From a virus (lineage: Duplodnaviria; Heunggongvirae; Uroviricota; Caudoviricetes), in the IMG/VR virus record IMGVR_UViG_3300014890_000016, positions 1 through 35,973 of that record: a stretch of DNA of 35,973 nt. One strand, given 5' to 3'. Each line of letters opens with the position of its first letter. Within the stretch, counting starts at the first letter, position 1. The notes beneath the pieces are model-generated. The model searched no databases and had not been told where the DNA came from. It was given only the letters and a program-made list of their open reading frames with translations. Position numbers and translations under genes: made by a program. Below, piece after piece: positions 12,128-35,973 of the stretch.

Positions 12128-13907
12128 CTGACAGGATCCATGTTGATTTGCGCTTGTGCTTATAGTTCAGGGGTTCATTACTTGCGGCATGAGCTATGGC
12201 AAAGAAGATGTCAGCGTGCCCGGTTTCTTCGCTACGTTCAGCGGTAAAAGTAACTTTATTGCCACTGTTGGTGGATTCCTGACGAATGGCCAGAAATGAT
12301 GCCGGAATATCCGTGGCTCCCTCATCCCACTCAATACGGTTGGCGTAAATCAGATCCAGCATCTTCATCACCAGGCGGTTTTTGGATTCAACGCTGTAAT
12401 GAATGGCCACTGTTTCACGGCGGGCAAATCCCTGAACCAGCTCAAAGACACCATAGCCAAGCCCGGTAACATCAATGCCGATAAACGTCATGTTATAGCG
12501 CGCCTTAATGCTGCGGATACGCTCTGCCATAAACTGGAATGACATGCTGCGCCAGTGGTGTTTTTCCAGCACGCGGAATCGTTCTGCCGCAACCAGCGGC
12601 GGTGCCAGCACCACAAACGTGGCGTTATCGCCGGAGCGCGCAGGGTCAAAGCCACCCCACACTTCACGGTTTCCAAATGGCATGGCATCTTCCGGGTGAA
12701 AATCCTCCCACGTACTGACATCAACGCCACAGCGCACGAGGTCATCGAATTTAAAGACGCTCTCTTTGTCATCCACAAACACGCACATATACAACATATT
12801 GAATGCTGTTTCGTTATATCGCTCGCGCAGCTCGTCAATGTTGGCAAGGTTAAAGCCGCCGGCAATGGCATCTTCCATTGTCACCACATAGCGCCACTGA
12901 CCATCCGGGCATTCGCGCCCGCCATCGCGCAGTTCATCAAAGGACGGGAACTCAACCCCTTTTCGTTTCGGGTCGCCTTTGCGCCATTCATCGCCAGACC
13001 AGAACGGGTAGCCCTGGTGTGTTTTGGATGACGGCGTGGAGAAGTAGGTAATGCGCCAGTGCGAGTGGGTGGCCATACCGGACGCCACTTCATTGAGGCG
13101 ACGAAAAGCGGGGATCCACAGATATTCGTCAATGTACAGGTGGCCGCTGTTTGACTGCGCCGTATTGCTGTTGGTCGCCAGAAAATACAGTTCAGCAAGA
13201 TTACTTAACTTAACCGGGTTGCCTTTAATGGGAATGCCAAATTCCGTCTGTGCAATCTTAACGATATAGGTGCGGAACACTTCGGCCTGGCGTTTTGATG
13301 CCGATAAAAATATCTGTGTGTCGCCGGTTAATACCGCATCTTCAAATGCCTCAAACGCGAAGTAATATGTCGCCCCAATCTGACGAGATTTAAGCAGGTT
13401 GCGTACACGGCGGAATTTGTTTTCACGCAGATGCAACTGATAAGCAAACAATTTTTTCGTAAACGGCTCAAAACTTTCAGCAGTCAGTCCGGAAACGTCA
13501 TTAGCTTTGCGGGGGCGCTCTTTCTTACCTGCACCTTTTTCTCCGCGTTCTTCTTTTCCATAACGACCAGACTGGGGAATATCCGCTCCCATTCGTTCAA
13601 TCTCGGCCATTCGTTCCGCGTGCTTGTTCCTGACCGACATCAGTTTGACGTGATGGCCAATCAGGCGATCGAGTTCATCGTGTTCTTCCGGCGTTTTATG
13701 ATCACGCTCCGCCAGTACAGCGAGACGACGGGCGATAACATCCTCCACGCCTTCAGTATTAAGCTGCGTGTACCACTCAAACTTTGTCGCCCAATAATAA
13801 ACAATTCGCGGGCTGTTTAGTCCGAGCTTCTTTTGTATTTCTTTTGGTGTGTGTCTTTTCAGATAGAGCGATTTTGCAGCAGCAATCACCTCATCAGAAT
13901 ACGCCAT
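12120..13907 (-). CDS. P: Terminase large subunit (ATPase), P2 gpP-like
   Basis: 595 aa; divergent from the O-N-M-L operon as in P2; Walker-type and nuclease-type regions present. Confidence 0.85.
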   Translation of the reverse strand: MAYSDEVIAAAKSLYLKRHTPKEIQKKLGLNSPRIVYYWATKFEWYTQLNTEGVEDVIARRLAVLAERDHKTPEEHDELDRLIGHHVKLMSVRNKHAERMAEIERMGADIPQSGRYGKEERGEKGAGKKERPRKANDVSGLTAESFEPFTKKLFAYQLHLRENKFRRVRNLLKSRQIGATYYFAFEAFEDAVLTGDTQIFLSASKRQAEVFRTYIVKIAQTEFGIPIKGNPVKLSNLAELYFLATNSNTAQSNSGHLYIDEYLWIPAFRRLNEVASGMATHSHWRITYFSTPSSKTHQGYPFWSGDEWRKGDPKRKGVEFPSFDELRDGGRECPDGQWRYVVTMEDAIAGGFNLANIDELRERYNETAFNMLYMCVFVDDKESVFKFDDLVRCGVDVSTWEDFHPEDAMPFGNREVWGGFDPARSGDNATFVVLAPPLVAAERFRVLEKHHWRSMSFQFMAERIRSIKARYNMTFIGIDVTGLGYGVFELVQGFARRETVAIHYSVESKNRLVMKMLDLIYANRIEWDEGATDIPASFLAIRQESTNSGNKVTFTAERSEETGHADIFFAIAHAASNEPLNYKHKRKSTWILSDE

Positions 13908-13994
13908 AAATAAACCTCACCTGCTGATGCAATTTTAATTTATGCATTTTCAGCAAAGGCTTTTTTAAAAACGAATATCGCTTTTCGGTATTTT

Positions 13995-14018
13995 TCGGAT
14001 ATATGCGCATATCCGAAA
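13995..14018. promoter_or_regulatory. Inverted repeat centred in the P/O divergent late-promoter region
   Basis: TTCGGATAT-N6-ATATCCGAA, 9-bp perfect arms, roughly 100 bp from each start codon. Confidence 0.4.
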
Positions 14019-14101
14019 GTACCGGAAATTAATCAGATGACGACATTTTTATTTCTCCGTTAAATAACGCCAGTTTAATTTTTATCAGCGGATTAATTCA
14101 G

Positions 14102-14998
14102 ATGACGAAGCAGAAAACAGACTGGGTTGTGGTTGCCACATCAGGCCCCACCATCGACGGTCGGGAAATTGATCCGAAGTGGCTGACAGATGCCGCCGAG
14201 GTTTACAACCCGGACGAGCGAGCCGCCATGCTCTGGCCATATCACGCCGATTCCGGATGGCGTGCCTTCACCAATAACTACGGCCTTGTTGATGCCCTGA
14301 AAGTCGAAAAATTTGGTGACAAGGTGCAGCTTAAAGCACGCCTGATCCCAAATCGCTTCCTGATTGAAGCCAATAAGGCCGGGCAGAAACTTTTTACCTC
14401 CATTGAGGTGCGGGAAAACTATCTGGGCACGGGCAAATTCTTTGTGTCCGGTATCGCCGTGACGGATACCCCGGCCAGCATTAACACCACACGTCTGCAG
14501 TTTTCCATGGGGGAAACCATCCATATGGGCAGCGCAGAGGCGCTGAATTTTACGCTGCAGCCTGATGATGAGCAGGCAAAGCGCAACTTCTTCTCCCGCT
14601 TCTTCTCATCTGACAACCACCAACAGGGAATCTACCAAGCCATGAACGAAGAACAGTTCAGCCAGTTAATGGGCGCTATTAATAAAACCAGCGAACGCCT
14701 GGACAAGCTGGAAGAAAACGTCGCGCAGTTCAGCACGAAGGATGCCCCGAAAGATACCGGTGATAACAAGCCGGAAGGCAGCGCCGGCGATCAGGGGCAG
14801 GACAACGCAGAACCGAACAACAAGGACGAGAAAACCTTCACGCTGACCACCGAGCAGGGCGAAAAGCTGTTCTCCACGGTGAACGCTATCGCGGAGAAAG
14901 TCACCAGTATGGAAACCGCATTTGCTGAACTCAGCAAGGATGCCACGAAGCTGCCGGGTAACAATCCGGCCGGTGGCGAAACTTTTAACCTGGTGTAA
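14102..14998 (+). CDS. O: Capsid scaffolding protein, P2 gpO-like
   Basis: 298 aa; first gene of the rightward head operon; acidic C-terminal half. Confidence 0.8.
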   Translation: MTKQKTDWVVVATSGPTIDGREIDPKWLTDAAEVYNPDERAAMLWPYHADSGWRAFTNNYGLVDALKVEKFGDKVQLKARLIPNRFLIEANKAGQKLFTSIEVRENYLGTGKFFVSGIAVTDTPASINTTRLQFSMGETIHMGSAEALNFTLQPDDEQAKRNFFSRFFSSDNHQQGIYQAMNEEQFSQLMGAINKTSERLDKLEENVAQFSTKDAPKDTGDNKPEGSAGDQGQDNAEPNNKDEKTFTLTTEQGEKLFSTVNAIAEKVTSMETAFAELSKDATKLPGNNPAGGETFNLV

Positions 14999-18559: not shown

Positions 18560-19708
18560 ATGACCTGGCCATCTGTCACGATTGAACAGTACAACACATT
18601 CAGTAGCTCGCCGGACGGCGTGGAAAATACGCTGCTGTTTGTGGGCAATGCACAAAACAACAAAGGTAAGGTTCTGCCGGTCAATGCCAACAGTGATCTG
18701 GATGAATTGCTGGGAGCGAACGCCAGCCCGCTGAAGAATTTCCTTCAGTCCGCACTGACCAATGCCGGACAGAATGCCTTTTTCTATGTTGCCGTTCTGC
18801 CGGAAGCAGGCAGGGGCAAAGAAGCGACGCCAGCCTGCCAGGCATGGCGGAACACCGTACTGGCGGCTCAGGAAACTGTTTCAGTTGAAGGCGCGGTGAT
18901 CACCGAACCAGTCAGCACGAAGGATGACATCAACGCCATACAGGCATTACGTCAGACCATCATCAATAAATATCAGCGCCGCATCTGGTTCATCCTGACC
19001 ATCGCCGCCAACGACAACAGTAAAACCTGGGCGGAATACGTTGCCGAACTGACCACGCTACAGAAAGGCATTGCAGCTCCGCAGGTCATGCTGGTTCCGG
19101 AGATTTTTGGATTTGAACCGGGCGTTCTTGCCGGTCGTCTGTGTAACAGCGCCGTCACCATTGCTGACAGTCCGGCACGTGTGGCAACCGGGGCCCTGTC
19201 CGCACTGAAAACCACAGAACGCCCGAAAGACAGCGCAGGGCAGGCAATTGATCTCGCTACCCTGCAGGCACTGGCAGCCGCCCGCTACAGCGTGCCCATG
19301 TGGTATGCCGACTATGACGGCCTTTACTGGGCCGACGGCGTGACACTTGAGGTTGAAGGCGGGGACTACAACGTCATTGAGCATGTCCGCATTGCTGATA
19401 AGGTGGCGCGCCGCGTACGGCTGATGGCCATCCCCAAAATTGCCGATCGCTCACTGAACAGCACACCAGGCAGCATTGCCGCACATGAAACGCTGTTTGC
19501 CCGCCCGCTGCGTACCATGGCGAAATCCACGCAGATTAACGGTGTCACCTTTCCGGGTGAAGTGAAATCGCCACAAAAAAGCGATGTAACCATCACCTGG
19601 CAGGACGAAAAGACAGTCAGCATCAGCATTGTTGTCCGCCCTTACGCCTGCCCCAAAACCATCAAAGTGGGCATTCAGCTGGACAAATCTCTGGAGGAGA
19701 ACGCATGA
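18560..19708 (+). CDS. Putative tail sheath protein
   Basis: 382 aa with AGGAG Shine-Dalgarno; size and position before a tube-sized ORF in a tail with J/I baseplate genes. Assigned by context. Confidence 0.45.
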   Translation: MTWPSVTIEQYNTFSSSPDGVENTLLFVGNAQNNKGKVLPVNANSDLDELLGANASPLKNFLQSALTNAGQNAFFYVAVLPEAGRGKEATPACQAWRNTVLAAQETVSVEGAVITEPVSTKDDINAIQALRQTIINKYQRRIWFILTIAANDNSKTWAEYVAELTTLQKGIAAPQVMLVPEIFGFEPGVLAGRLCNSAVTIADSPARVATGALSALKTTERPKDSAGQAIDLATLQALAAARYSVPMWYADYDGLYWADGVTLEVEGGDYNVIEHVRIADKVARRVRLMAIPKIADRSLNSTPGSIAAHETLFARPLRTMAKSTQINGVTFPGEVKSPQKSDVTITWQDEKTVSISIVVRPYACPKTIKVGIQLDKSLEENA

Positions 19709-20160
19709 CAACCCGCATTAACGGCATGGCCTTTGATGTTTATGTTGGCGGAACGGATATCCGCGTAAAAAACATTTCGCTGGATATCAGCGACGAAAGC
19801 GCCGTGGCCAAAACCCGTGGCATCCCTGACGGCAAACTGCGCGGTCCCGTCAGTGCCGAAGGTGAAATCGAAATGAGCACCCGCAGTTTTAACCAGCTCG
19901 GGGAAGCGGCCGCTCAGGCGGGATCGTGGCGTGACCTGCCATCAATGGATTTTGTGTTCTACGCCAACACAGGCACCGAAGAAATCCGCGTTGAAGTCTT
20001 CGGGTGTGAGCTGATGCTTTCGAATCTGTTAAGCATTGACACCGAGAGCGCGGATCTGACCACGCACAAAATCAAGTACGTGGTGGCAAGCCCTGACTTT
20101 GTGCGTATCAACGGCGTGCCCGTTCTCTCGGAGAACGACGTGCGCGGGCTGATGGGGTAA
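19705..20160 (+). CDS. Putative tail tube protein
   Basis: 151 aa, ATGA-coupled to the sheath candidate. Assigned by context. Confidence 0.45.
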   Translation: MTTRINGMAFDVYVGGTDIRVKNISLDISDESAVAKTRGIPDGKLRGPVSAEGEIEMSTRSFNQLGEAAAQAGSWRDLPSMDFVFYANTGTEEIRVEVFGCELMLSNLLSIDTESADLTTHKIKYVVASPDFVRINGVPVLSENDVRGLMG

Positions 20161-20163
20161 ACC

Positions 20164-20460
20164 ATGCAGGAGCATGAACGCACCATCATCACCCTGAGCA
20201 TTCTGGGCGGAATCGCTGCCGCAAGTCGGGTGCTGGCTGGCGCAGAGCCGATTACATTGCGGCTGTTTGTGGGCCGAACCCTGCTGGGGAGCGCGCTGGG
20301 GGTTTCTGCCGCCGCCCTGCTGGTTCGTTACCCGAACCTTGACCCACTGGCCATTGCCGGCGCAGGTACCGCAATGGGCGTTGCCGGTTACCAGATTGTG
20401 GAGATCTTCCTGCGCCACATGCGCCGGAAGCTGGACGAAAAAGAGAACAAAGAGGAGTAA
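20164..20460 (+). CDS. Putative holin
   Basis: 98 aa with three hydrophobic segments and a charged C-terminus (RRKLDEKENKEE); upstream of an M15 peptidase. Confidence 0.5.
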   Translation: MQEHERTIITLSILGGIAAASRVLAGAEPITLRLFVGRTLLGSALGVSAAALLVRYPNLDPLAIAGAGTAMGVAGYQIVEIFLRHMRRKLDEKENKEE

Positions 20461-20465
20461 CCGCA

Positions 20466-20573
20466 ATGCAGTCCCGCAGGGATCAGAAAGCCGCTGTCAT
20501 TGTCTGGAAAATTATCCGGGCGTTGTGGCGCTGGTTGCGTAAACCTCAACAACCCCATAAGGAGCAAAAATGA
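20466..20573 (+). CDS. Small cationic amphipathic peptide (35 aa)
   Basis: MQSRRDQKAAVIVWKIIRALWRWLRKPQQPHKEQK; GAGGAG Shine-Dalgarno 8 nt upstream; stop overlaps the endolysin ATG. Confidence 0.35.
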   Translation: MQSRRDQKAAVIVWKIIRALWRWLRKPQQPHKEQK

Positions 20574-20911
20574 AACTCTCCGATAAGCAACAACAATTTA
20601 CCGTCATGATCGGAAAGCTCATCCAGTTTGCCCATCAGCGCGGTTATGGCCTGACGTTCGGTGAGGCGTACCGCACGCCAGAGCAGGCAAAACTCAACGC
20701 ACAAAAGGGATCAGGCATCACCAACAGTCTGCACTGCCAGCGACTGGCGGTGGATTTTAATCTGTTTATTAACGGTGAATACCAGACCCGCACAGAGGCT
20801 TACCGCGAACTGGGCGAGTACTGGGAATCCCTCGGCGGCGCATGGGGCGGTCGTTTTAAAAAACGCCCGGATGGCAATCATTTCAGCCTTGAGCACGACG
20901 GTGTGCGCTGA
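20570..20911 (+). CDS. Endolysin, peptidase M15-type
   Basis: 113 aa; His...Asp...His zinc-site pattern (SLHCQRLAVDF ... DGNHFSLEH) as in T5-type M15 lysins. Confidence 0.7.
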   Translation: MKLSDKQQQFTVMIGKLIQFAHQRGYGLTFGEAYRTPEQAKLNAQKGSGITNSLHCQRLAVDFNLFINGEYQTRTEAYRELGEYWESLGGAWGGRFKKRPDGNHFSLEHDGVR

Positions 20912-20975
20912 TTTTACGCTTAATAAGCCTTCCTGCAGGCTTATTAAGCCCTCTTATTCTTGACATTAACAGGAC

Positions 20976-21269
20976 ATGATGATGAACGATAAAAACACCC
21001 AAATCACCGCAGAGAACGCCATCACTTTACAGGTCGGCGAGCATGAACTGACGTTTATTCCGACGGTGAAAGACTACAACGACCTGCAGAACGACTTCAT
21101 GCCGGACAATAAAATTGCACCACTGAAAAACTACCTGCGCCGCATCGTGATTAAAGAGCACCGCGATCTGCTGAACCAGTTGCTGGAAAAACCGGGAATG
21201 CCGGCCAGTCTGGCAACTGCCGTGAATAACGAGTTCGTGCCGGAAGTGGAAATCACCGTAAAAAAATAA
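20976..21269 (+). CDS. E: Tail assembly chaperone, gpE-like
   Basis: 97-aa ORF immediately upstream of the tape measure gene; ends in an A-rich slippery tract. Confidence 0.55.
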   Translation: MMMNDKNTQITAENAITLQVGEHELTFIPTVKDYNDLQNDFMPDNKIAPLKNYLRRIVIKEHRDLLNQLLEKPGMPASLATAVNNEFVPEVEITVKK

Positions 21270-21457
21270 AAAGCCATCTGGGAGCCATTGATCGCAATGA
21301 CCTTACCAGGATGCTGATCCTGCGCCGCCACTGGCTGCCCGGTGAAGATGATTCACCACAGTCACTGGCTGCTGCCGTCTGGCTGGATAACCACTACTGG
21401 GAAAATATGGGTATCGCCGTCAATAACGGCATTATCCGCGCCTTTAAGGGAACGTAA
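20976..21457 (+). CDS. Predicted E+E' -1 frameshift fusion product
   Basis: Slipping -1 in GTAAAAAAATAA gives a reading frame open to a stop that overlaps the tape measure ATG. Hand-translated. Confidence 0.4.
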
Positions 21458-25702: not shown

Positions 25703-27564
25703 GCACAATCATTACTGAACAATATGAAAACTGGTGCGCAGATCAGATTATCAGCGATAAACCCGCACGCCCGGACATGTTTGTTTTTGCGTATATCCCG
25801 GGACAGGATGAGTCTGCCGAAATTCCCCGTGACGAGGCTTTGCCCGATGAATCCATGATTCAGTACCGCGCGCCGGTCACTCAGTATGGACTACTGTCCC
25901 CGAATGCTGCCGCATTTTCCATTATTCTGGACACCACTATCGGTGACTTCGAATATAACTGGATTGGCCTCATGAACGAAGAAAGCGGCGTGCTCTGCAT
26001 GATTGCACACACACCGCGCCAGCAAAAAATTAAAACAGCAAACGGCGTGCAGGGAAATAACCTTATTCGCACCTTTGCCATGGAGTTTGACGGTGCGGCT
26101 GCGGCAATGCATATCGATGTCAGTGCTGATGTCTGGCAGATTGATTTTACTGCCCGACTCGCGGGAATGGATGAATCACGTCGCCTGTTGGCATTTGATC
26201 ACTACGGAGAAGCCGCTTTTCTGGGGGGCGGTTTTCAGGTCAGTTATCAGGACGGTACCGCCACTGTTGCCGCCGGCGTGGGTTATGTGGGGGGGCTGCG
26301 CGTCAGTCTGCGCGAACCTTACAGCCTGCCGGCTGCGGTCGGGGATACTCTCTGGATTGATGCAAGCTGGCAGGGATTTGTTACCGGCGAATGGAATACC
26401 GTTTTTACGTTCTGCGCCCGCAGGGAACATGCGTCCTATACAGACGGTAACGGCTTCCGACACTTTGTCGCGCCACTTGCAAAAATGACAGCAGACGGCC
26501 CACAGGACCTGCGCCCGGAGACACCCGACGAGGAACAAAGCAATGCACTGGCAGAGCACGAAAAATCCCGCAGACACCCGGATGCCACGCTGAACGAGAA
26601 AGGCTTTGCGCAGTACAGCAACGACACCGACAGCGACGCAGAGGACCGCGCCGCCACATCAAAGGCAGTAAAAGCCGTAATGGATAAGGCAAAAGGCGCT
26701 GTTGAGCGTGCCGGTGATACCATGACCGGCGAGCTGAAAATCCGTGGTGTTAATGCGCTGCGAATTTTCAACAAAGCCTTTGGTCTGATTTTTCGCCGTT
26801 CGGAAGAGTGCCTGCACCTTATCCCTACCAGTGAAGGTCAGGGCGAGAATGGCGATATTGGCCCCCTGCGTCCGTTCACCATTAATCTGCGGACGGGTGA
26901 AATATCCATGTCGCATAAAGTGTCTGTTGGCGGTGGCTCTCAGGTGAATGGTGCGCTGGGTATCGGTGTTCAGAACGCACTGGGCGGTAACTCAATTGCT
27001 CTCGGGGATAGCGATACAGGTATAAAACAAAACGGCGACGGCATTCTGGATGTTTATGCGAATGGACAGCATGTATTTCGTTTCCAGAATGGTGTGGCGA
27101 TAGCGTTAAAAAATATTCAGGCCGGAAATGCTAAAAAATTCACGTTATCCAGCGCCAACAACTCAACGAAAAACGCAACGTTTAATTTATGGGGCAATTC
27201 GTCCCGTCCTGTGGTTGCAGAGCTTGGTGATGATTCCGGCTGGCATTTTTACAGCCAGAGAAATACGGATAACAGCATAACGTTTGCTGTAAACGGTCAG
27301 ATGGTTCCATCAGACTACAGAAATTTTGATGCCCGCTACCAGACAAAGACAGGTGGCGTGCAGAATTTTCAGTACACCAGTGAGGTGTTTTATAACCCTG
27401 GTGGGAATGAGCGCAGCTGGACGTTTCGGGCACCTTCTGGTTGTGTTTTATCAGGCATTAATGTTCAGGACACTGGCAGTAACTCTGCAGATAATATCGG
27501 TGGCGTGTATTACAAGCAGGCTCAGATTTATATTAATGGTGCATGGCGATCCGTATCAGGTTAA
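25699..27564 (+). CDS. H: Tail fibre protein, P2 gpH-like C-terminal part
   Basis: 621 aa; AEHEKSRRHPDATLNEKGFAQYS and NALGGNSIALGDSDTGIKQNGDGILDVYANGQHVFRFQNGVAIALKNIQAG...WHFYSQRNTDNS match P2 gpH closely. Confidence 0.85.
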   Translation: MSTIITEQYENWCADQIISDKPARPDMFVFAYIPGQDESAEIPRDEALPDESMIQYRAPVTQYGLLSPNAAAFSIILDTTIGDFEYNWIGLMNEESGVLCMIAHTPRQQKIKTANGVQGNNLIRTFAMEFDGAAAAMHIDVSADVWQIDFTARLAGMDESRRLLAFDHYGEAAFLGGGFQVSYQDGTATVAAGVGYVGGLRVSLREPYSLPAAVGDTLWIDASWQGFVTGEWNTVFTFCARREHASYTDGNGFRHFVAPLAKMTADGPQDLRPETPDEEQSNALAEHEKSRRHPDATLNEKGFAQYSNDTDSDAEDRAATSKAVKAVMDKAKGAVERAGDTMTGELKIRGVNALRIFNKAFGLIFRRSEECLHLIPTSEGQGENGDIGPLRPFTINLRTGEISMSHKVSVGGGSQVNGALGIGVQNALGGNSIALGDSDTGIKQNGDGILDVYANGQHVFRFQNGVAIALKNIQAGNAKKFTLSSANNSTKNATFNLWGNSSRPVVAELGDDSGWHFYSQRNTDNSITFAVNGQMVPSDYRNFDARYQTKTGGVQNFQYTSEVFYNPGGNERSWTFRAPSGCVLSGINVQDTGSNSADNIGGVYYKQAQIYINGAWRSVSG

Positions 27565-27577
27565 TTAAGGAGAAATA

Positions 27578-28120: not shown

Positions 28121-29172
28121 TGAGCGCGCTGTTGACGAAAGCATTTGAGAAATGGGTTGCTGAATGCGCCGCCAGTAATTTACCGGCGCGACCTGACTCC
28201 ATTGTTTTTGCACTGATGGAAAGGGAACCATCCAGAGATGATGAAGTTGTCCCCCCTGAAAAAATCACACACACGGTAAATAATCTGCGCTATGGAAAAC
28301 TGGATCCAAACAGCATTGTCTGTAGTGCCGTTGTTGCTGATAACGAGACATTCACTTACGACTGGATTTGCCTGGTCCATCAACCCAGCAACACACTCTG
28401 CGGCGTAATTAAAACCCCGGTTCGCCACAAACTGACCGGCGAAACACTTATCCGCAATTTTGCTGTTATTTATAGTGGACTGGCCCAGGCGGCACACATC
28501 ACTGTACCTCCGGAAAGCTGGCAATTGGATCTTTTTCCTGAATTAAACAAAAAAGCACCATTGCACAGCCCCTCACTCACCGGGGAACCAACTACGCCAA
28601 CTCCTCCCGAGGATGCCGCAGATACCGAAATAGCAAATGCGAAATTTGTCCGCAAGCTACTTAAAGAAATGAGCGATTCTTTATCTGCCCCTTCTGTTTC
28701 GGGTGATCCCAAAAATTTACTGAAAACACAATCTGGCGCTTTATTTGTTGATGGCGCTCACCCGATCATCCCCAAAATGCTCGTAAGCACCATGAACTCC
28801 AATCTGGATTCATTTAAAAGCCTGCCCGATGGTTCGCGTGTTTATACCCTGAAGCTGGATGTATCAAACCCCATCGGGCAATCCTCAGTTGGCGGTATCG
28901 GAATCGCTGTTTCAGCGATGATTGAGCCGCGTTATCTCTATCAGAACCAGAACCGACAGTACATTCCTGCGCAGTATTTTGTCGGCTCTGTCTCTGCAAA
29001 TACGCGAACAATCACTATCGGAATACAGGTGGTGATGCCTGATAAACCTTACTATGCACTGGATATGTCAACACTGAAAGATATTGCCGGCGCAGATGAT
29101 GGGCCGCTCCCCTGTGTTGTGGTTATAAAAACACTAGCAGGGACAACGTTGCGTCAGAACGGAATGGGATAA
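28120..29172 (+). CDS. Second tail-fibre-like protein (shared N-terminal domain, distinct C-terminus)
   Basis: 350 aa; N-terminal ~150 aa align with the H N-terminus (PARPD..VFA, LIRNFA, SWQLD); contains KKAPLHSPSLTGEPTTPTPPED...TEIANAKFV, similar to the P2 gpH collar motif. Confidence 0.55.
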   Translation: MSALLTKAFEKWVAECAASNLPARPDSIVFALMEREPSRDDEVVPPEKITHTVNNLRYGKLDPNSIVCSAVVADNETFTYDWICLVHQPSNTLCGVIKTPVRHKLTGETLIRNFAVIYSGLAQAAHITVPPESWQLDLFPELNKKAPLHSPSLTGEPTTPTPPEDAADTEIANAKFVRKLLKEMSDSLSAPSVSGDPKNLLKTQSGALFVDGAHPIIPKMLVSTMNSNLDSFKSLPDGSRVYTLKLDVSNPIGQSSVGGIGIAVSAMIEPRYLYQNQNRQYIPAQYFVGSVSANTRTITIGIQVVMPDKPYYALDMSTLKDIAGADDGPLPCVVVIKTLAGTTLRQNGMG

Positions 29173-29196
29173 CATTTGAACGTACAGGAAAATGAG

Positions 29197-29919
29197 ATGA
29201 AATATTCTGTATGGGAGCACGCCATTCTGCGTCCGGCTCCGATAGCCATCACCTGTTCAGTGGTTTGCCTCCACCCATGGTCAGAAAATACGGGAAACAT
29301 TACACCATCAGGGCGTTACCTCAGCCCGGATAATGCTGTATCCGCGCTTTTACCTTATCTGACAGAAAACACTGAAAAAGACGTTGTGGCGCTGTTATTT
29401 TGCGCTCCGTCTGCTGGCGAGTTTTTATCACTGGCCAGACAGTTTTCGGGTGCACTTCCATTGGCGGAAGTGGGAAGAATGTCCCGCATGATCTCCAGTC
29501 AGCTTTCGCTGGCCGTGAGTAAAATGCAGCTCCCTGCAAAACCGGCAACCACACTTCCTGCAGAAGTCACGCTGTCCACACAAACCACCCGCAGCATGAC
29601 GCGGGCAGCGACTATTGCGCGGGCTGCGATCCCGACCGCTGTATCTCCGGAAACATTATCCTCGTCTCTGAATCAGTTCAGAATCGCGAGAGATAAGGCA
29701 CTACAGGAAATCACCGACCAGCAGGCCGCAATTCAGAAAAACGCGTGTCCGGTGTGGCGTTTTTTTTATACGGGCACACTAAATCAGGTTGCAGCACTGA
29801 TAAAAAAAAATATTCCACATCCGGAATGGGTTTTTACAGCTGTGATGCTGTTTGTCGGTAATGATCTTTCATCACTAAGAGAATCACTACATGACCCAGA
29901 TGATCGTTCTTGCACTTGA
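29197..29919 (+). CDS. Hypothetical protein downstream of the second fibre gene
   Basis: 240-aa ORF with AGGAA Shine-Dalgarno; Ala/Ser/Thr-rich centre; no Tfa signature. Confidence 0.4.
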   Translation: MKYSVWEHAILRPAPIAITCSVVCLHPWSENTGNITPSGRYLSPDNAVSALLPYLTENTEKDVVALLFCAPSAGEFLSLARQFSGALPLAEVGRMSRMISSQLSLAVSKMQLPAKPATTLPAEVTLSTQTTRSMTRAATIARAAIPTAVSPETLSSSLNQFRIARDKALQEITDQQAAIQKNACPVWRFFYTGTLNQVAALIKKNIPHPEWVFTAVMLFVGNDLSSLRESLHDPDDRSCT

Positions 29920-32806: not shown

Positions 32807-32836
32807 TTGAAACAAGGGAAAAAACCAGGCTAGAAT
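32807..32836 (+). promoter_or_regulatory. Candidate sigma70 promoter upstream of the hok-like ORF
   Basis: TTGAAA, 18-bp spacer, TAGAAT; about 150 nt upstream of the toxin start codon. Confidence 0.35.
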
Positions 32837-32988
32837 TCGCACGGGTGCCTTTCGGCTGATGGCTGGAGGGAATACCCGAAGGCCGGATGTGGAAAGGCCC
32901 CGGAAAACATTTTTGTTTAACCGAGGCCCTAACCATCTACCCTAGACAAGTGATAGGTTAGCGCCTCCCTGAAAAAGGAGCAAGCGCT

Positions 32989-33129
32989 ATGTCGCAAAAA
33001 TCGCTTACGGCCATTACGTTCTGCGTAACGGCAATCCTCATCATCTGGATGCTGCACGGTTCACTGTGTGAAATACGGATGAGCTTCTGGGGAGCGGAGT
33101 TTGCGGCGTTCTTACAGTGTAAGCAGTAA
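32989..33129 (+). CDS. hok: Hok/Gef-family type I toxin peptide (46 aa)
   Basis: MSQKSLTAITFCVTAILIIWMLHGSLCEIRMSFWGAEFAAFLQCKQ: one TM helix then the SLCEIR motif and an AAFL.CK C-terminus as in HokA/PndA; GGAG Shine-Dalgarno. Below the ORF-track cutoff. Confidence 0.7.
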   Translation: MSQKSLTAITFCVTAILIIWMLHGSLCEIRMSFWGAEFAAFLQCKQ

Positions 33130-33214
33130 GGAAACCGCGACGGGGGAGCAATCCCCCGTCAATCGGTTGCCAGGGTAAGGTCGATAAGGCACCCTATCTC
33201 GCAAACCTGAATGC

Positions 33215-33246
33215 AAAAAGCCCGCAGGATTAATCGCGGGCTTTTT
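33215..33246. terminator. Bidirectional Rho-independent terminator
   Basis: AAAAA-GCCCGC-loop-GCGGGC-TTTTT; ends the hok transcript and the convergent minus-strand gene. Confidence 0.55.
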
Positions 33247-33275
33247 ATTTCCAGAGAGGGTGGTTGGCTTACCGA

Positions 33276-33713
33276 TTATTCTTCATTTTCCTTTGACGTT
33301 ATTACCACAGTAGCCAGTTTATCAATCAGGCGCTCACACGCATCAACATCTTTGAGGTTTCTTAATTTGAGCTTTGCAGTTTTAGGCTCATCATCTCTGG
33401 TACAAAGGTGTAGCTCAACTTCAACATCATTCCTGTTTAACAACCCCATAATAACCCCTGCAAATTTTTTCGCCCGTGAGAGCAATTCGAACATAACACT
33501 AAGCATATCGGGTGCATTCGCAGAGAAGCAAGTCACGCGACCTATATCAAATCCATTATTTTGAAAATACTCCTCTATTGAAGAGGAAAGCTCTGAAGGG
33601 CATGTAATCCTGACACTTGCAAATCGGGACTGATGTAATGGTGTTCCCTTTAAATATTGCACTTGAAGCCTCCGCATTAAAACTACAGCACAAGTGAGGC
33701 CAAACAGCCCCAT
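33276..33713 (-). CDS. Hypothetical protein
   Basis: About 145-aa ORF divergent from com; start uncertain (TTG 33719, ATG 33713 or ATG 33677); no family recognised. Confidence 0.45.
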   Translation of the reverse strand: MGLFGLTCAVVLMRRLQVQYLKGTPLHQSRFASVRITCPSELSSSIEEYFQNNGFDIGRVTCFSANAPDMLSVMFELLSRAKKFAGVIMGLLNRNDVEVELHLCTRDDEPKTAKLKLRNLKDVDACERLIDKLATVVITSKENEE

Positions 33714-33732
33714 GAACAAAATAGAAAACGCA

Positions 33733-33766
33733 GATCGATAATATAAAACCGATCGATAAAATCGAT
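33733..33766. promoter_or_regulatory. Three ATCGAT palindromes, two containing GATC, in a divergent promoter region
   Basis: ATCGAT at 33733, 33752 and 33761 between the leftward ORF and the com-methylase operon. Confidence 0.35.
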
Positions 33767-33814
33767 CAATTTGTTATCATACCGGCAGCAGTAACCACAT
33801 AAGAGGTGCCGCAA

Positions 33815-34012
33815 ATGACGCAAAATGTACGATGCAAAAATTGCAACAAACTACTTGCCCGCGCCTCATTTCACTACATTGAAATAAAATGTCCGCGCTG
33901 CAAAACACTTAACCAGATAACGAGAGCCATTGAGCACCCCACACACATGAGGAGCTATGACCGTGGGGATCGCAATCCAGCACCAACCAGCACATACACC
34001 GGAACACACTAA
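33815..34012 (+). CDS. com: Com-like zinc-finger translational regulator
   Basis: MTQNVRCKNCNKLLARASFHYIEIKCPRCKTL matches Mu Com (MKSIRCKNCNKLLFKADSFDHIEIRCPRCKRH); AAGAGG Shine-Dalgarno; 3' end overlaps the methylase gene as com overlaps mom in Mu. Confidence 0.7.
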   Translation: MTQNVRCKNCNKLLARASFHYIEIKCPRCKTLNQITRAIEHPTHMRSYDRGDRNPAPTSTYTGTH

Positions 34013-34748
34013 GGTTTATCAGACTGACAATGCCACGCTCTGTCGTGGGAATGCGCTGGAAATATTGCCGCTGATTGAGCCAGAAAGCATTGACGCCTTA
34101 ATCACTGATCCGCCTTACAGTTCGGGCGCGACACATAAGGCCGGACGCACCAACCATGGTAGCCATGCAAAATATCTGAACGGCGAGAGCCTTCACCGCT
34201 TTGATGGGTTCGCGGGTGAAAACATGGACGCCCGTTCGTGGGCTTACTGGACACAATTATGGATGGCACAGGCACACCGCGCAGTCAGGCCGGGCGGTTA
34301 TGCCCTGGTATTTACTGACTGGCGACAACTACCAGCTTTAACCGATGCGTTTCAGGCCAGTGGTTTTACATGGCGCGGCATCATTGCGTGGAACAAGGGG
34401 AGGGGGTCACGAACACCACATACCGGATATTTCCGGCATCAGTGCGAATACATCGTCTGGGGCAGCAAAGGCCATTTAGATAAATCGCCTTCGGGGCCGT
34501 TCGACGGCTGCATGACGTTCCCGGTTATCCCGTCAAAGAAAATGCACCCGACCGGAAAACCAGAAGAACTAATGGCAGAACTGGTCAGGACTGTGAATAG
34601 CGGCGGAACAGTCCTTGATCCTTTTATGGGGTCAGGGACAACGGGTGTGGCTGCACTTAAAGCAGGACGCAAATTTATTGGTATAGAAACCAGTGATCAT
34701 TATTTTGATGTAGCAACACAACGGCTCAAAACGGCGATCGAACCATAA
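33957..34748 (+). CDS. DNA methyltransferase, N6-adenine/N4-cytosine class
   Basis: 263 aa; catalytic DPPY (ALITDPPYSSG) precedes the SAM-binding FMGSGTTG motif; target base not determinable from sequence. Confidence 0.85.
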   Translation: MTVGIAIQHQPAHTPEHTKVYQTDNATLCRGNALEILPLIEPESIDALITDPPYSSGATHKAGRTNHGSHAKYLNGESLHRFDGFAGENMDARSWAYWTQLWMAQAHRAVRPGGYALVFTDWRQLPALTDAFQASGFTWRGIIAWNKGRGSRTPHTGYFRHQCEYIVWGSKGHLDKSPSGPFDGCMTFPVIPSKKMHPTGKPEELMAELVRTVNSGGTVLDPFMGSGTTGVAALKAGRKFIGIETSDHYFDVATQRLKTAIEP

Positions 34749-34792
34749 GACAAAGCCCGCAATGTTGCGGGCTTACTCTACCTCTCGAAAAT

Positions 34793-34815
34793 GTGGTCAC
34801 TGTGTGGACATACGC
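34793..34815. repeat. Putative attR core, imperfect copy of the int-end repeat
   Basis: GTGGTCACTGTGTGGACATACGC versus 11..35; about 21 of 23 positions match, then a 2-nt indel before TACGC; lies between the methylase terminator hairpin and the flk-like gene. Confidence 0.4.
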
Positions 34816-34977
34816 TGATACAAATCCTTTTATATCAATAAATTAAATCTTTGTTTTTTTCATCAACAAGGATTTTCACGTTTGTGTTACCTGTATGAGA
34901 CGAGAGTTAACCGGACAAGTGTGCCATAATCTCGCGGCCAGGCATACTTGCGAAGATTTCAGGTATAAGGATACGTA

Positions 34978-35973
34978 ATGATACAACCTATTTCCGGCCC
35001 TCCTCCTGGGCAACCACCAGGTCAGGGAGATAACCTGCCGTCTGGCGCGGGCAATCAGCCTTTATCCAGTCAGCAACGTACTTCGCTGGAAAGCTTAATG
35101 ACGAAAGTGACCTCACTGACGCAACAACAAAGAGCAGAACTGTGGGCGGGTATCAGGCACGATATTGGTCTGTCGGGAGATTCACCGCTGCTTTCGCGTC
35201 ACTTTCCTGCCGCTGAGCATAATCTGGCGCAACGTCTGCTGGCCGCGCAAAAAAGCCATTCTGCCCGCCAGCTTTTAGCGCAATTAGGGGAGTATTTACG
35301 TCTGGGGAATAATCGTCAGGCGGTCACGGATTATATCCGTCATAACTTTGGTCAGACGCCGCTGAATCAGCTCTCACCGGAGCAATTAAAAACCATTCTA
35401 ACCCTGTTGCAGGAAGGGAAGATGGTTATTCCGCAACCTCAGCAGCGCGAGGCGACCGACCGTCCGTTATTACCGGCGGAGCACAATGCGCTCAAACAGC
35501 TGGTGACCAAACTTGCGGCGGCAACGGGAGAACCCAGCAAGCAGATCTGGCAATCGATGCTGGAACTTTCCGGGGTGAAAGATGGCGAGTTAATTCCAGC
35601 GAAACTGTTTAACCATCTGGTGACCTGGCTACAGGCGCGTCAGACGCTAAGCCAGCAAAATACGCCGACGCTTGAATCACTCCAGATGGCGCTAAAACAA
35701 CCTTTAGATGCCAGTGAACTGGCGGCGTTATCGGCATATATCCAGCAGAAATATGGCCTTTCTGCGCAATCATCGCTTTCTTCTGCCCAGGCCGAGGATA
35801 TTCTTAATCAGCTTTATCAACGGCGGGTTAAAGGGATTGATCCGCGAGATATACAACCGCTGCTTAATCCTTTTCCACCGATGATGGACACGTTGCAAAA
35901 TATGGCAACGCGTCCCGCGCTGTGGTTACTGTTAGTCGCGATTATCCTGATGCTGGTCTGGCTGGTTCGTTAA
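34978..35973 (+). CDS. flk: Flk-like flagellar regulator with C-terminal membrane anchor (chromosomal)
   Basis: 331 aa; Pro/Gln-rich N-terminus MIQPISGPPPGQPPGQ and hydrophobic tail ALWLLLVAIILMLVWLVR, as recalled for enterobacterial Flk. Confidence 0.55.
   Translation: MIQPISGPPPGQPPGQGDNLPSGAGNQPLSSQQRTSLESLMTKVTSLTQQQRAELWAGIRHDIGLSGDSPLLSRHFPAAEHNLAQRLLAAQKSHSARQLLAQLGEYLRLGNNRQAVTDYIRHNFGQTPLNQLSPEQLKTILTLLQEGKMVIPQPQQREATDRPLLPAEHNALKQLVTKLAAATGEPSKQIWQSMLELSGVKDGELIPAKLFNHLVTWLQARQTLSQQNTPTLESLQMALKQPLDASELAALSAYIQQKYGLSAQSSLSSAQAEDILNQLYQRRVKGIDPRDIQPLLNPFPPMMDTLQNMATRPALWLLLVAIILMLVWLVR

What the first reader, a model, noticed from the sequence alone, without database searches (positions are those of the whole stretch)
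20164..20911. Lysis cassette inside the tail module, with a cationic peptide and no recognisable spanins
Holin-like and M15 endolysin genes sit between the tube candidate and the tail chaperone, not after the head genes as in P2. Between them is a translationally coupled 35-aa Trp/Arg-rich amphipathic peptide. I found no Rz/Rz1-type nested spanin pair, so the peptide may be a disruptin-like outer-membrane lysis factor or an antiholin.
Basis: partly seen in the sequence, partly recalled or inferred. Interest (0 to 1): 0.6.

Follow-up and report, generated by a model that had tools for sequence, protein, structure and literature searches.

The report
Spanin-less prophage with cationic lysis peptide
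An Escherichia prophage has lost the two genes its relatives use to burst the bacterial outer membrane, and carries instead a conserved, unannotated 35-residue positively charged helical peptide that probably does that job.

Summary
Tube (19705-20160), P2-Y-type holin (20164-20460), a 35-aa ORF (20466-20573), an M15 endolysin (20570-20911) and the tail chaperone (20976-21269) lie in that order.

Placing the lysis genes inside the tail module is not new. It is the standard HP1-type layout.

What is unusual is the content:
- About 100 related loci from more than 20 enterobacterial genera carry an i-spanin/o-spanin pair between endolysin and chaperone, and no small ORF.
- The window's Escherichia lineage and one sister lineage have only a 64-85 bp hairpin there. 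They carry a 35-41 aa cationic ORF between holin and endolysin.
- No locus has both features, and none has neither.

No lipoprotein or spanin homologue exists elsewhere in the window.

The small ORF evolves as a coding gene: dN/dS is 0.30 in its own frame, 0.15 in the core, and about 1 in the other two frames. All three indels seen are in frame. It has net charge +8, three Trp and a predicted amphipathic helix, with no TMD or signal peptide.

Best reading: a disruptin-like outer-membrane lysis peptide, analogous but not homologous to phiKT gp28, that replaced the spanins. Function is inferred, not shown. The replacement is a single evolutionary event.

The parts
19705..20160 (+). Tail tube gene (context; upstream boundary of the lysis cassette)
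   Evidence: Pfam Phage_HP1_Orf24 at 3.4e-50; PHROG 1182 'tail protein'.
20164..20460 (+). Holin of the P2 gpY / PF04550 family. Its last codons, AAA GAG GAG TAA, supply the ribosome-binding site of the small ORF.
   Evidence: PF04550 at 2e-28; PHROG 175 'holin'. 43% identical to P2 gpY. 28% identical over 85 aa to the phiKT holin gp29, pairwise E 1e-11. omega 0.06.
20452..20457 (+). Shine-Dalgarno GAGGAG for the small ORF, 8 nt upstream of its ATG
   Evidence: Read directly from the sequence.
20466..20573 (+). 35-aa cationic amphipathic peptide gene, the candidate disruptin-like outer-membrane lysis factor. Not annotated in RefSeq.
   Evidence: The ORF and its ATGA overlap with the endolysin start. 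omega 0.30 in frame against about 1 out of frame. Net charge +8, hydrophobic moment 0.64. Predicted helix over residues 3-24. No Pfam, PHROG or NCBIfam family. Present only in the spanin-less lineages.
20505..20546 (+). Conserved core of the peptide, codons 14-27 (WKIIRALWRWLRKP). This is the amphipathic face with K15, R18, R22, R25 and K26.
   Evidence: 7 synonymous and 4 non-synonymous changes, omega 0.15, p = 0.0024. Helical-wheel angles.
20570..20911 (+). M15 metallopeptidase endolysin, translationally coupled to the small ORF. Its own Shine-Dalgarno AAGGAG lies at 20559-20564.
   Evidence: Pfam Peptidase_M15_4 at 3.8e-11; PHROG endolysin families. 66-84% identical to the endolysins of the spanin-bearing relatives, 86% to the spanin-less sister lineage. 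omega 0.10.
20918..20949 (+). 13-bp stem-loop in the 64-bp endolysin-chaperone spacer, exactly where relatives carry the i-/o-spanin genes. Terminator-like or mRNA-stabilising.
   Evidence: Terminator-like scan hit. Free energy -21.1 kcal/mol, z -5.5. The stem is kept through compensatory changes in L043 and in sister lineage L070.
20976..21269 (+). Tail assembly chaperone (context; downstream boundary of the lysis cassette)
   Evidence: Pfam Phage_TAC_10 at 2.6e-25.

Best explanation
The 35-aa ORF is a real late gene of a complete HP1-type/P2-type Escherichia prophage. It most likely encodes a disruptin-like lysis peptide that does the outer-membrane step of lysis in place of the two-component spanin this lineage has lost.

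Proposed sequence of events:
1. Holin, peptide and endolysin are translated from one late transcript. Tight coupling follows from the 5-nt gap with a Shine-Dalgarno after the holin stop and the ATGA overlap with the endolysin start. This is shown by the sequence.
2. The peptide has no signal sequence, TMD or lipobox. It folds as an 18-22 residue amphipathic Trp/Arg/Lys-rich helix. This is predicted.
3. When the gpY-type holin triggers, endolysin and peptide reach the periplasm. Alternatively the peptide crosses membranes on its own, as proposed for phiKT gp28. This is inferred.
4. The M15 peptidase degrades the peptidoglycan. The cationic helix binds LPS and the outer membrane and weakens it, so the membrane ruptures once it alone carries the turgor load. 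This is inferred by analogy with gp28 and cationic antimicrobial peptides.
For: (a) Real gene.
- omega is 0.30 over the whole ORF (p = 1.5e-4) and 0.15 in the core. The two other frames give 1.10 and 1.02. Pairwise dN/dS is 0.10-0.39, with pS similar to the neighbouring genes.
- The only indels seen are in frame: +9, -9 and -3 nt.
- The start codon, Shine-Dalgarno and codons 1-27 are intact in about 40 sequenced loci. All 41 E. coli complete genomes that carry the region align over it without any length change.

(b) Replacement of the spanins.
- 36 genome loci from more than 20 genera, 64 IMG/VR loci and 4 isolated phages have spanins after the endolysin and no small ORF.
- The window lineage and a sister lineage (L070/L092; holin 72%, endolysin 86%, tube 83% identical) have no spanins. 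Both have a coupled cationic small ORF of 35 or 41 aa, net charge +8 or +9.
- No locus has both or neither.

(c) No lipoprotein and no spanin homologue anywhere in the window.

(d) The lineage looks viable without spanins.
- All long structural ORFs in the window are intact.
- Neighbouring genes have omega 0.03-0.16, with synonymous divergence up to about 0.5-0.6 inside the lineage.
- At least two integration sites are used: next to pheA in E. coli A2 and next to flk in the window.

(e) Match to the one characterised disruptin. gp28 is 56 aa, net charge +7, amphipathic and helical. It lies between endolysin and holin in a phage without any lipobox, and it complements lambda Rz/Rz1 amber mutants (bioRxiv 10.1101/515445). 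The phiKT holin is a homologue of the window holin.
Against: - There is no experimental or expression evidence.
- Gain of the peptide and loss of the spanins map to a single ancestral event. The perfect exclusivity is therefore one phylogenetic observation, not many independent ones.
- The peptide is much less constrained than its neighbours: omega 0.30 against 0.06-0.10.
- C-terminal nonsense alleles exist: Q28* on one contig and Q34* in four loci.
- ORF openness alone is weak evidence at this length.
- There is no sequence similarity to gp28. A tblastn search of the phage collection, which holds phiKT, found nothing even at E <= 10.
- Similarity between the two peptide lineages is modest: local score 35, shuffle p = 0.003, and BLASTP finds nothing.
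- A cytoplasmic cationic amphipathic peptide could act on the inner membrane instead.
- Some copies of the prophage are decaying. E. coli A2 has a frameshifted terminase.
Confidence: 0.5

Rival explanations
1. The peptide acts at the level of the holin and the inner membrane. It would be an antiholin, a co-holin or a timing factor that binds the cytoplasmic face of the membrane or the holin tail. The loss of the spanins would be a separate, tolerated event.
For: - The ORF follows the holin immediately and is coupled to it. In the sister lineage its GTG overlaps the holin stop as GTGA.
- In the window lineage the holin C-terminal tail is unusually acidic (DEKENKEE). Relatives have basic tails.
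- Small accessory lysis factors acting at holin level are known, for example the 65-aa LambdaSo protein Lcc6 (bioRxiv 10.1101/2024.01.23.576932).
- The disruptin paper itself notes that such cationic peptides could depolarise the inner membrane and trigger holins.
Against: - The peptide has no transmembrane segment. Known antiholins and Lcc6 are membrane proteins or holin isoforms.
- The sister-lineage holin has an ordinary basic tail (YLRYLRRKYGGKNK) yet keeps the peptide. The acidic-tail pairing is therefore not general.
- The roughly 100 relatives with the same type of holin and endolysin need no such factor.
- This reading leaves the outer-membrane step unexplained.
Confidence: 0.2
2. The ORF matters only as a translational-coupling leader that delivers ribosomes to the endolysin start. 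Alternatively it is a tolerated filler with no function of its own.
For: - The ATGA overlap, and the endolysin Shine-Dalgarno lying inside the ORF.
- Relaxed constraint and C-terminal nonsense alleles.
- No homologue in any family library.
- Only four near-identical clusters among 5.8 billion proteins.
Against: - Selection is frame-specific, omega 0.30 and 0.15 in the core, while the other frames sit at about 1. A pure leader would not conserve WKIIRALWRWLRKP through synonymous changes.
- The sister lineage keeps charge, length, amphipathicity and an AVxVWxhhRxL motif although most of the sequence has changed.
- In relatives, holin and endolysin overlap directly, so no leader is needed.
Confidence: 0.1
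3. The lineage is simply defective or leaky for the outer-membrane step, because shear or low divalent cations suffice in its niche. The peptide then has an unrelated role, for example as a toxin, an exclusion factor or a nucleic-acid binder.
For: - In lambda, spanin mutants yield fragile spherical cells that millimolar Mg2+ stabilises, as summarised. The requirement for spanins is therefore conditional.
- About 13% of surveyed phages of Gram-negative hosts, 91 of 677, have no identified spanin (PMC6139136).
- Some copies of this prophage are degraded.
Against: - The position inside the holin-endolysin pair and the double coupling tie expression of the peptide to lysis.
- The spanin-less state has persisted through substantial divergence (pS about 0.5) while the virion genes stayed under strong purifying selection.
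- It has persisted across E. coli, E. albertii and a further sister lineage.
Confidence: 0.12

Closest known systems
Disruptin gp28 of Escherichia phage phiKT (Holt et al., bioRxiv 10.1101/515445)
   Same: - Small cationic polypeptide: +7 for gp28, +8 here.
- Predicted amphipathic helix; no signal peptide, TMD or lipobox.
- Gene sits between the holin and endolysin genes.
- The host genome lacks any lipoprotein or spanin.
- The partner holin belongs to the same PF04550-type family.
   Different: - No detectable sequence similarity.
- 35 aa against 56 aa; Trp/Arg-rich with one helix rather than three basic clusters.
- Temperate HP1/P2-type myovirus prophage rather than a virulent podovirus.
- Gene order is holin-peptide-endolysin rather than endolysin-gp28-holin.
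- The spanin-bearing ancestral state is still visible in close relatives.
- Function is untested here.
HP1-type lysis cassette of Peduoviridae (HP1 hol-lys-orf25; Yersinia vB_YenM_324; Salmonella SI7; Escherichia ESSI2_ev239; Cronobacter ESSI-2)
   Same: - Same order: sheath, tube, holin, endolysin, tail chaperone, tape measure.
- The enterobacterial members share the PF04550 holin and the 113-aa M15 endolysin, 75-81% identical in the isolated phages and 66-84% across the genome loci.
   Different: - All of them encode an i-spanin plus an overlapping o-spanin after the endolysin, and their holin and endolysin genes abut or overlap.
- The window lineage has a 64-bp hairpin spacer instead of the spanins and an extra 35-aa gene between holin and endolysin.
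Linear cationic amphipathic antimicrobial peptides (LL-37; Trp/Arg-rich peptides such as indolicidin or tritrpticin; the latter named from general knowledge, not tested here)
   Same: Length, net charge (+8 against +6 for LL-37), high hydrophobic moment (0.64 against 0.78) and Trp/Arg composition.
   Different: The peptide is encoded by a phage and made in the cytoplasm of the cell it would act on. No activity data exist.
Small accessory lysis proteins acting at holin level (LambdaSo Lcc6; P2 LysA; the latter from general knowledge)
   Same: A small protein encoded in or near the lysis cassette, in addition to the holin and the endolysin.
   Different: Those are integral membrane proteins. The LambdaSo and P2 systems still have spanins. 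The window peptide has no TMD.

Membership tests
Disruptin (functional class founded by phiKT gp28) | Small (<80 aa) polypeptide with a high net positive charge (at least +4) | tested here: met
   35 aa, 10 K+R against 2 D+E, net +8. The sister-lineage peptide is 41 aa, net +9.
Disruptin (functional class founded by phiKT gp28) | Predicted amphipathic alpha-helix, with no signal sequence, TMD or lipobox | tested here: met
   Hydrophobic moment 0.64 over 18 residues (shuffle p 0.013-0.015). K15, R18, R22, R25 and K26 lie on one face. AF2 predicts a helix over residues 3-24. There is no uninterrupted hydrophobic stretch and no Cys.
Disruptin (functional class founded by phiKT gp28) | Gene lies inside the lysis cassette, next to the holin and the endolysin | tested here: met
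   It lies between the holin stop (20460) and the endolysin start (20570) and is coupled to both.
Disruptin (functional class founded by phiKT gp28) | The phage genome encodes no lipoprotein, so no two-component or unimolecular spanin | tested here: met
   Lipobox scans of all six frames found nothing credible; the stricter scan recovered a lipobox ORF in 36 of 37 related loci as a positive control. Spanin HMMs gave no hit.
Disruptin (functional class founded by phiKT gp28) | Disrupts the outer membrane; complements a lambda Rz/Rz1-null lysis defect | not testable with these tools
   Requires the complementation and Mg2+ spherical-cell assays of Holt et al..
Disruptin (functional class founded by phiKT gp28) | Sequence homology to gp28 (not required by the functional definition) | tested here: not met
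   A tblastn search of the peptide against the phage collection, which includes phiKT NC_019520, found no match at E <= 10. By eye the gp28 sequence is unrelated.
Two-component spanin (Rz/Rz1 type) | An i-spanin (type II inner-membrane protein with an N-terminal TMD and a periplasmic domain of about 100 aa) plus an o-spanin lipoprotein with a lipobox | tested here: not met
   Between endolysin and chaperone there are only 64 bp, and between holin and endolysin only 108 bp. The overlapping 28-aa ORF (20500-20586) has no signal peptide and lies in a frame with omega about 1. There is no lipobox ORF and no homologue of the relatives' spanins.
Unimolecular spanin (T1 gp11 type) | An N-terminal lipobox signal plus a C-terminal TMD | tested here: not met
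   No credible lipobox ORF exists in the window.
Antiholin | A holin isoform with an N-terminal extension, or a separate membrane protein (TMD or SAR) that binds the holin | tested here: not met
   The peptide is a separate ORF, unrelated to the holin, and has no TMD. Binding to the holin could not be tested.
HP1-type Peduoviridae late-gene layout | Order sheath, tube (HP1 Orf24), holin, endolysin, spanin(s), tail chaperone, tape measure | tested here: met
   Every element is present in that order except the spanins.

The most novel reading that the evidence does not exclude
A temperate coliphage lineage replaced a two-component spanin with an orphan 35-aa Trp/Arg-rich peptide, possibly born de novo. 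That would make it a second, sequence-unrelated disruptin family, and the first case where the spanin-to-disruptin switch can be read directly from close relatives that still carry the spanins. The peptide would also be a natural, genetically tractable phage antimicrobial peptide active on the E. coli outer membrane.
Probability: 0.45. Interest if true: 0.75.

Novelty: new variant of a known kind. Interest (0 to 1): 0.6.

Why it matters
About 13-15% of phages of Gram-negative hosts have no recognisable spanin (91 of 677 in PMC6139136). Only one alternative outer-membrane disruptor, phiKT gp28, has been characterised, and it has essentially no relatives. It is therefore unknown how general that solution is.

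This locus offers a natural experiment. Spanin-bearing relatives have the same type of holin, endolysin and gene order. The one clade that lost the spanins carries a conserved cationic peptide gene instead.

If the peptide disrupts the outer membrane, several things follow:
- Disruptins would be shown to arise repeatedly from unrelated sequences, including in temperate phages.
- There would be a simple genomic rule for finding more: spanins missing where relatives have them, plus a coupled small cationic ORF in the cassette.
- A 35-residue peptide would become available for outer-membrane permeabilisation studies in E. coli.

The case also exposes an annotation gap. None of the 41 RefSeq E. 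coli genomes that carry the region annotates the gene.

Tried and rejected
1. Nested or overlapping spanin pair inside 20100-21000.
- The +1-frame ORF inside the endolysin gene (20661-20963) and the 28-aa ORF (20500-20586) have no lipoprotein signal.
- The +1-frame 'WILICLL' motif is only a by-product of the conserved LAVDFNLFING codons.
- Both alternative frames of the peptide region evolve neutrally.

2. Spanins elsewhere in the prophage.
- Every lipobox candidate is antisense to a known gene or embedded in one.
- The only plus-strand hit in the late region (27461-27568) would leave a 19-residue mature peptide and has no i-spanin partner.
- HMMs of the relatives' spanins found nothing.
- The ORFs after the tail-fibre genes are tail, baseplate or unknown PHROGs, not spanins.

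3. Origin of the peptide by duplication of the holin C-terminal tail or of an i-spanin N-terminus. Protein and DNA local alignments are no better than shuffles.

4. Origin from any sequence in the spanin-bearing relatives or elsewhere in the window. No significant nucleotide or translated match.

5. Homologues of the peptide.
- None in 50,697 phage records at E <= 10.
- None in Pfam, PHROGs or NCBIfam.
- Only four near-identical clusters among 5.8 billion proteins.

6. Pairing of an acidic holin tail with the cationic peptide. The sister lineage has a basic tail, so this is not general.

7. A solved structure for the endolysin by sequence search: no hit.

8. One literature search was wasted because 'disruptin' matched 'disrupting'.
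Full report
WHAT IS THERE

The window is almost entirely one prophage, from about position 1 to about 32.8 kb. Host DNA (flk and neighbouring genes) follows at the right end. That end matches Escherichia chromosomes at 96-97% identity.

The early, replication and head genes are P2-like. The sheath (DUF2586), the tube (Pfam Phage_HP1_Orf24), the chaperone (Phage_TAC_10) and the rest of the tail are HP1-like.

- tube, 19705-20160
- holin, 20164-20460
- a 35-codon ORF, 20466-20573
- M15 endolysin, 20570-20911
- a 64-bp spacer
- tail assembly chaperone, 20976-21269

The holin is a PF04550 / P2-gpY-type holin (2e-28; 43% identical to gpY). The endolysin is a Peptidase_M15_4 protein (3.8e-11).

The small ORF has a GAGGAG Shine-Dalgarno 8 nt upstream, formed by the last holin codons. 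Its stop overlaps the endolysin start as ATGA. It is therefore coupled on both sides.

THE POSITION OF THE CASSETTE IS ORDINARY

Haemophilus phage HP1 has sheath (orf23), tube (orf24), hol, lys, Rz-like spanin (orf25), orf26 and tape measure (orf27) in that order.

The same order, with PF04550 holins and 75-81% identical M15 endolysins, is annotated in three isolated phages:
- Yersinia phage vB_YenM_324
- Salmonella phage SI7
- Escherichia phage ESSI2_ev239

A lysis cassette inside the tail module is therefore the known HP1-type layout, not an anomaly.

WHAT IS UNUSUAL

In those phages an i-spanin of about 110-130 aa and an overlapping o-spanin lipoprotein of about 95 aa lie between the endolysin and the chaperone. 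Their holin and endolysin genes abut or overlap, with nothing between them.

I collected related loci with the endolysin as probe.
- Among 38 loci from one genome per species, 36 carry this spanin pair and no small ORF. They come from more than 20 enterobacterial genera, including Enterobacter, Salmonella, Yersinia, Serratia, Photorhabdus, Xenorhabdus, Providencia, Proteus/Morganella, Erwinia, Hafnia and Kluyvera.
- The exceptions are a truncated Proteus remnant, an unrelated Galbibacter hit, and Escherichia albertii. The E. albertii locus has the window's arrangement.
- Among the 80 best IMG/VR loci found with an endolysin profile, 63 have both spanins of this family and no peptide. One has a lambda-type embedded Rz/Rz1 pair. 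The other 16 have no spanin and do have the small ORF.
- No locus has both features, and none has neither.

In the window itself I looked for spanins in three ways.
- Two six-frame lipobox scans found only antisense or embedded artefacts. The stricter scan detected a lipobox ORF downstream of the endolysin in 36 of 37 related loci; the one miss is the spanin-less E. albertii locus.
- HMMs built from 36 i-spanins and 34 o-spanins of the relatives found nothing in the six-frame translation (best E 0.4).
The +1-frame ORF inside the endolysin gene and the 28-aa ORF at 20500-20586 lack lipoprotein signals. Those frames evolve neutrally.

IS THE SMALL ORF A GENE?

The lineage is present in 41 of 5,426 complete E. 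coli genomes. All 41 align across the region without length change, and none annotates the ORF. It is also present in E. albertii, in several Logan assemblies, and in metagenome and IMG/VR contigs.

Across 21 loci there are 12 nucleotide haplotypes of the ORF. I counted changes on a neighbour-joining tree of 15 haplotypes spanning holin to endolysin, using parsimony reconstruction.

| Region | Synonymous | Non-synonymous | omega | p |
|---|---|---|---|---|
| Small ORF, own frame | 20 | 24 | 0.30 | 1.5e-4 |
| Core, codons 14-27 (WKIIRALWRWLRKP) | 7 | 4 | 0.15 | 0.0024 |
| Same DNA, frame +1 | 10 | 33 | 1.10 | 0.66 |
| Same DNA, frame +2 | 11 | 31 | 1.02 | 0.58 |
| Holin | 74 | 12 | 0.06 | 5.3e-30 |
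| Endolysin | 56 | 20 | 0.10 | 2.6e-21 |

Other observations on the alleles:
- Pairwise Nei-Gojobori values agree with the tree counts: 0.10-0.39, with pS 0.32-0.49, similar to the neighbouring genes.
- The three indels seen are all in frame: +9 nt (a QQP duplication), -9 nt and -3 nt.
- Against strong constraint, five loci carry C-terminal nonsense alleles (Q28* in one contig, Q34* in four). Every one keeps residues 1-27.
- Segregating sites are not concentrated at third codon positions as they are in the neighbours.

I conclude that this is a translated gene whose helical core is under purifying selection. Its termini are only loosely constrained. I put this at about 0.85.

A SISTER LINEAGE

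Two contigs, L070 (JACXXQ010000004.1) and L092/L109, are clearly closer to the window lineage than to the spanin-bearing relatives. Their tube is 83% identical, holin 72%, endolysin 86% and chaperone 83%. For the other relatives the tube and chaperone are only about 40-50% identical.

These contigs share the window's arrangement:
- They also lack spanins. The spacer is 85 bp.
- They have a small ORF between holin and endolysin. Its GTG overlaps the holin stop (GTGA) and is preceded by GGAGG 9 nt upstream. Its stop overlaps the endolysin start (ATGA).
- The product is MTGKKASPGILSGMRQFAVKVWQLLRSLQKLRNSMNGKTRP, 41 aa with net charge +9.

It shares only a short motif, AVxVWxhhRxL, with the window peptide. 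The local alignment score is 35 and shuffles reach it with p = 0.003. BLASTP reports nothing.

Position, coupling, size, charge and amphipathic character are thus conserved while most of the sequence is not. That pattern is expected for a membrane-active peptide selected for its physical chemistry.

PROPERTIES OF THE PEPTIDE

- 35 aa with 10 K+R and 2 D+E, so net charge +8. Three Trp and no Cys.
- No hydrophobic stretch uninterrupted by charge.
- The maximal 18-residue hydrophobic moment is 0.64, against a shuffle mean of 0.39 (p = 0.013).
- K15, R18, R22, R25 and K26 fall on one helical face.
- AlphaFold2 on the five-sequence alignment gives one helix over residues 3-24, with pLDDT about 89 for residues 11-20 and a disordered tail. 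This is a low-information prediction but consistent with the rest.
- For comparison, phiKT gp28 has 56 aa, charge +7 and moment 0.52. LL-37 has 37 aa, charge +6 and moment 0.78.

COMPARISON WITH WHAT IS KNOWN

Holt et al. (bioRxiv 10.1101/515445) defined the disruptin on phiKT gp28.
- It is a small cationic amphipathic peptide.
- It is encoded between endolysin gp27 and holin gp29.
- The phage has no lipobox in any ORF.
- It is necessary for lysis and complements lambda Rz/Rz1 amber mutants.
- It associates with the outer membrane and is as bactericidal as LL-37.
- gp28 had no homologues beyond one near-identical phage.

The window peptide meets every sequence-level criterion of that functional class but is not homologous to gp28. 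The phiKT holin gp29 is a homologue of the window holin (28% over 85 aa, E 1e-11).

Kongari et al. (PMC6139136) found no spanin in 91 of 677 phages. They list HP1 and HP2 among the phages with two-component spanins.

The LambdaSo study is a caution on two points. Spanins can hide as nested ORFs between holin and endolysin, which I tested here and excluded. Small extra lysis factors can also act at holin level, which I keep as a rival explanation.

MECHANISM: SHOWN AND INFERRED

Shown by sequence and comparison:
- the operon structure and the coupling
- coding selection on the small ORF
- the absence of spanins
- the exclusive distribution of peptide and spanins
- the physico-chemical class of the peptide

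Inferred:
- that the peptide reaches the periplasm, either through the large holes expected for gpY-type holins (general knowledge about P2 Y) or by translocating on its own as proposed for gp28
- that it weakens the LPS and outer membrane so that the cell bursts once the M15 peptidase has removed the peptidoglycan

Weaknesses:
- Loss of the spanins and gain of the peptide are one ancestral event. The distribution is therefore one evolutionary data point, however clean.
- No expression or phenotype data exist.
- Constraint on the peptide is moderate.

I put the disruptin-like reading at 0.5, a holin-level regulator at 0.2, a pure coupling leader or filler at 0.1, and an unrelated function in a lineage that tolerates spanin loss at 0.12.

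NOVELTY AND INTEREST

- The cassette position, the holin and the endolysin are known.
- The small gene is undescribed. RefSeq does not annotate it, it has no family, and the only database relatives are four near-identical unnamed clusters.
- As a candidate disruptin it would be a sequence-unrelated variant of a class with one characterised founder. It sits in a temperate myovirus, and the ancestral spanin state is preserved in relatives.
- A lysis specialist would find this useful and moderately surprising, and it is directly testable with an existing assay. It is not a new kind of system.
- Interest 0.6.

Noticed in passing
window 21230-21457 (DUF6890 ORF 21311-21457; chaperone gene ends at 21269): The 48-aa 'DUF6890 family protein' that PGAP annotates as a separate gene lies in the -1 frame of the tail assembly chaperone. 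That frame is open from 21230. The chaperone ends GTA AAA AAA TAA, a run of A that could serve as a slippery site. It is probably the programmed -1 frameshift extension of the chaperone (analogous to P2 E/E+E' and lambda G/GT), not an independent gene.
   Followed up: partly
window 20918-20949; L043 4444-4518; L070 2246-2341: A 13-14 bp hairpin with a pyrimidine-rich tail sits right after the endolysin, exactly where relatives carry the spanin genes. It is kept through compensatory substitutions in two diverged lineages (free energy -21.1, -19.9 and -26.1 kcal/mol; z -5.5, -3.9 and -4.0). It may be a terminator or attenuator, or an mRNA-stabilising element that separates the lysis genes from the chaperone and tape-measure genes.
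   Followed up: partly
L054 6283-6666 (phiKT gp29) against window 20164-20460: The holin of the only characterised disruptin phage, phiKT, is a homologue of the window holin (28% identity over 85 aa, pairwise E 1e-11). Both disruptin-type cassettes are therefore built around the same holin family.
   Followed up: partly
window 20413-20460 (holin C-terminus): The holin tail of the window lineage (RHMRRKLDEKENKEE) ends in an acidic stretch, whereas relatives have basic tails (for example RRRGSSLLKGKKP). The GAG GAG codons double as the Shine-Dalgarno of the small ORF. The sister lineage has a basic tail, so the acidic tail is not tied to the presence of the peptide.
   Followed up: partly
L056/L072 (Q28*), L063, L080, L085, L087 (Q34*), L046 (+QQP), L068 (-QQP), L083 (-I12): Natural alleles of the peptide include C-terminal truncations that keep residues 1-27, and in-frame indels in the tail and N-terminal part. 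This suggests that the helix alone may suffice for function and that the ATGA coupling to the endolysin is dispensable.
   Followed up: partly
L001 (E. coli A2, NZ_CP028772.1) 12434-14222 and 28261-29844: This copy of the prophage has a frameshifted large terminase and a tail-fibre region interrupted by a shikimate-transporter fragment. Some members of the lineage are therefore decaying, although the window copy has all long ORFs intact. The prophage sits next to pheA in A2 but next to flk in the window and in NZ_LR778147.1, so at least two integration sites are used.
   Followed up: partly
L002 2400-3539 (Yersinia phage vB_YenM_324, OM095401.1): The gene at the sheath position, immediately upstream of the tube, is annotated 'topoisomerase'. 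Its position and its match to the window's DUF2586 / PHROG 907 sheath suggest a misannotation.
   Followed up: no
window 32830-35973: To the right of the prophage lie a Hok/Gef-family gene, a Com-family regulator, a DNA methyltransferase (33957-34748) and flk. Many E. coli genomes have this block without the prophage (query covered from position 632 onward). It therefore appears to be resident chromosomal or older island DNA rather than part of this phage.
   Followed up: partly
L021 3827-4210 and L023 (Yersinia pekkanenii and Y. massiliensis): These relatives carry an extra 127-aa predicted membrane protein between the o-spanin and the tail chaperone. The slot after the endolysin therefore accepts additional cargo in other lineages.
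   Followed up: no
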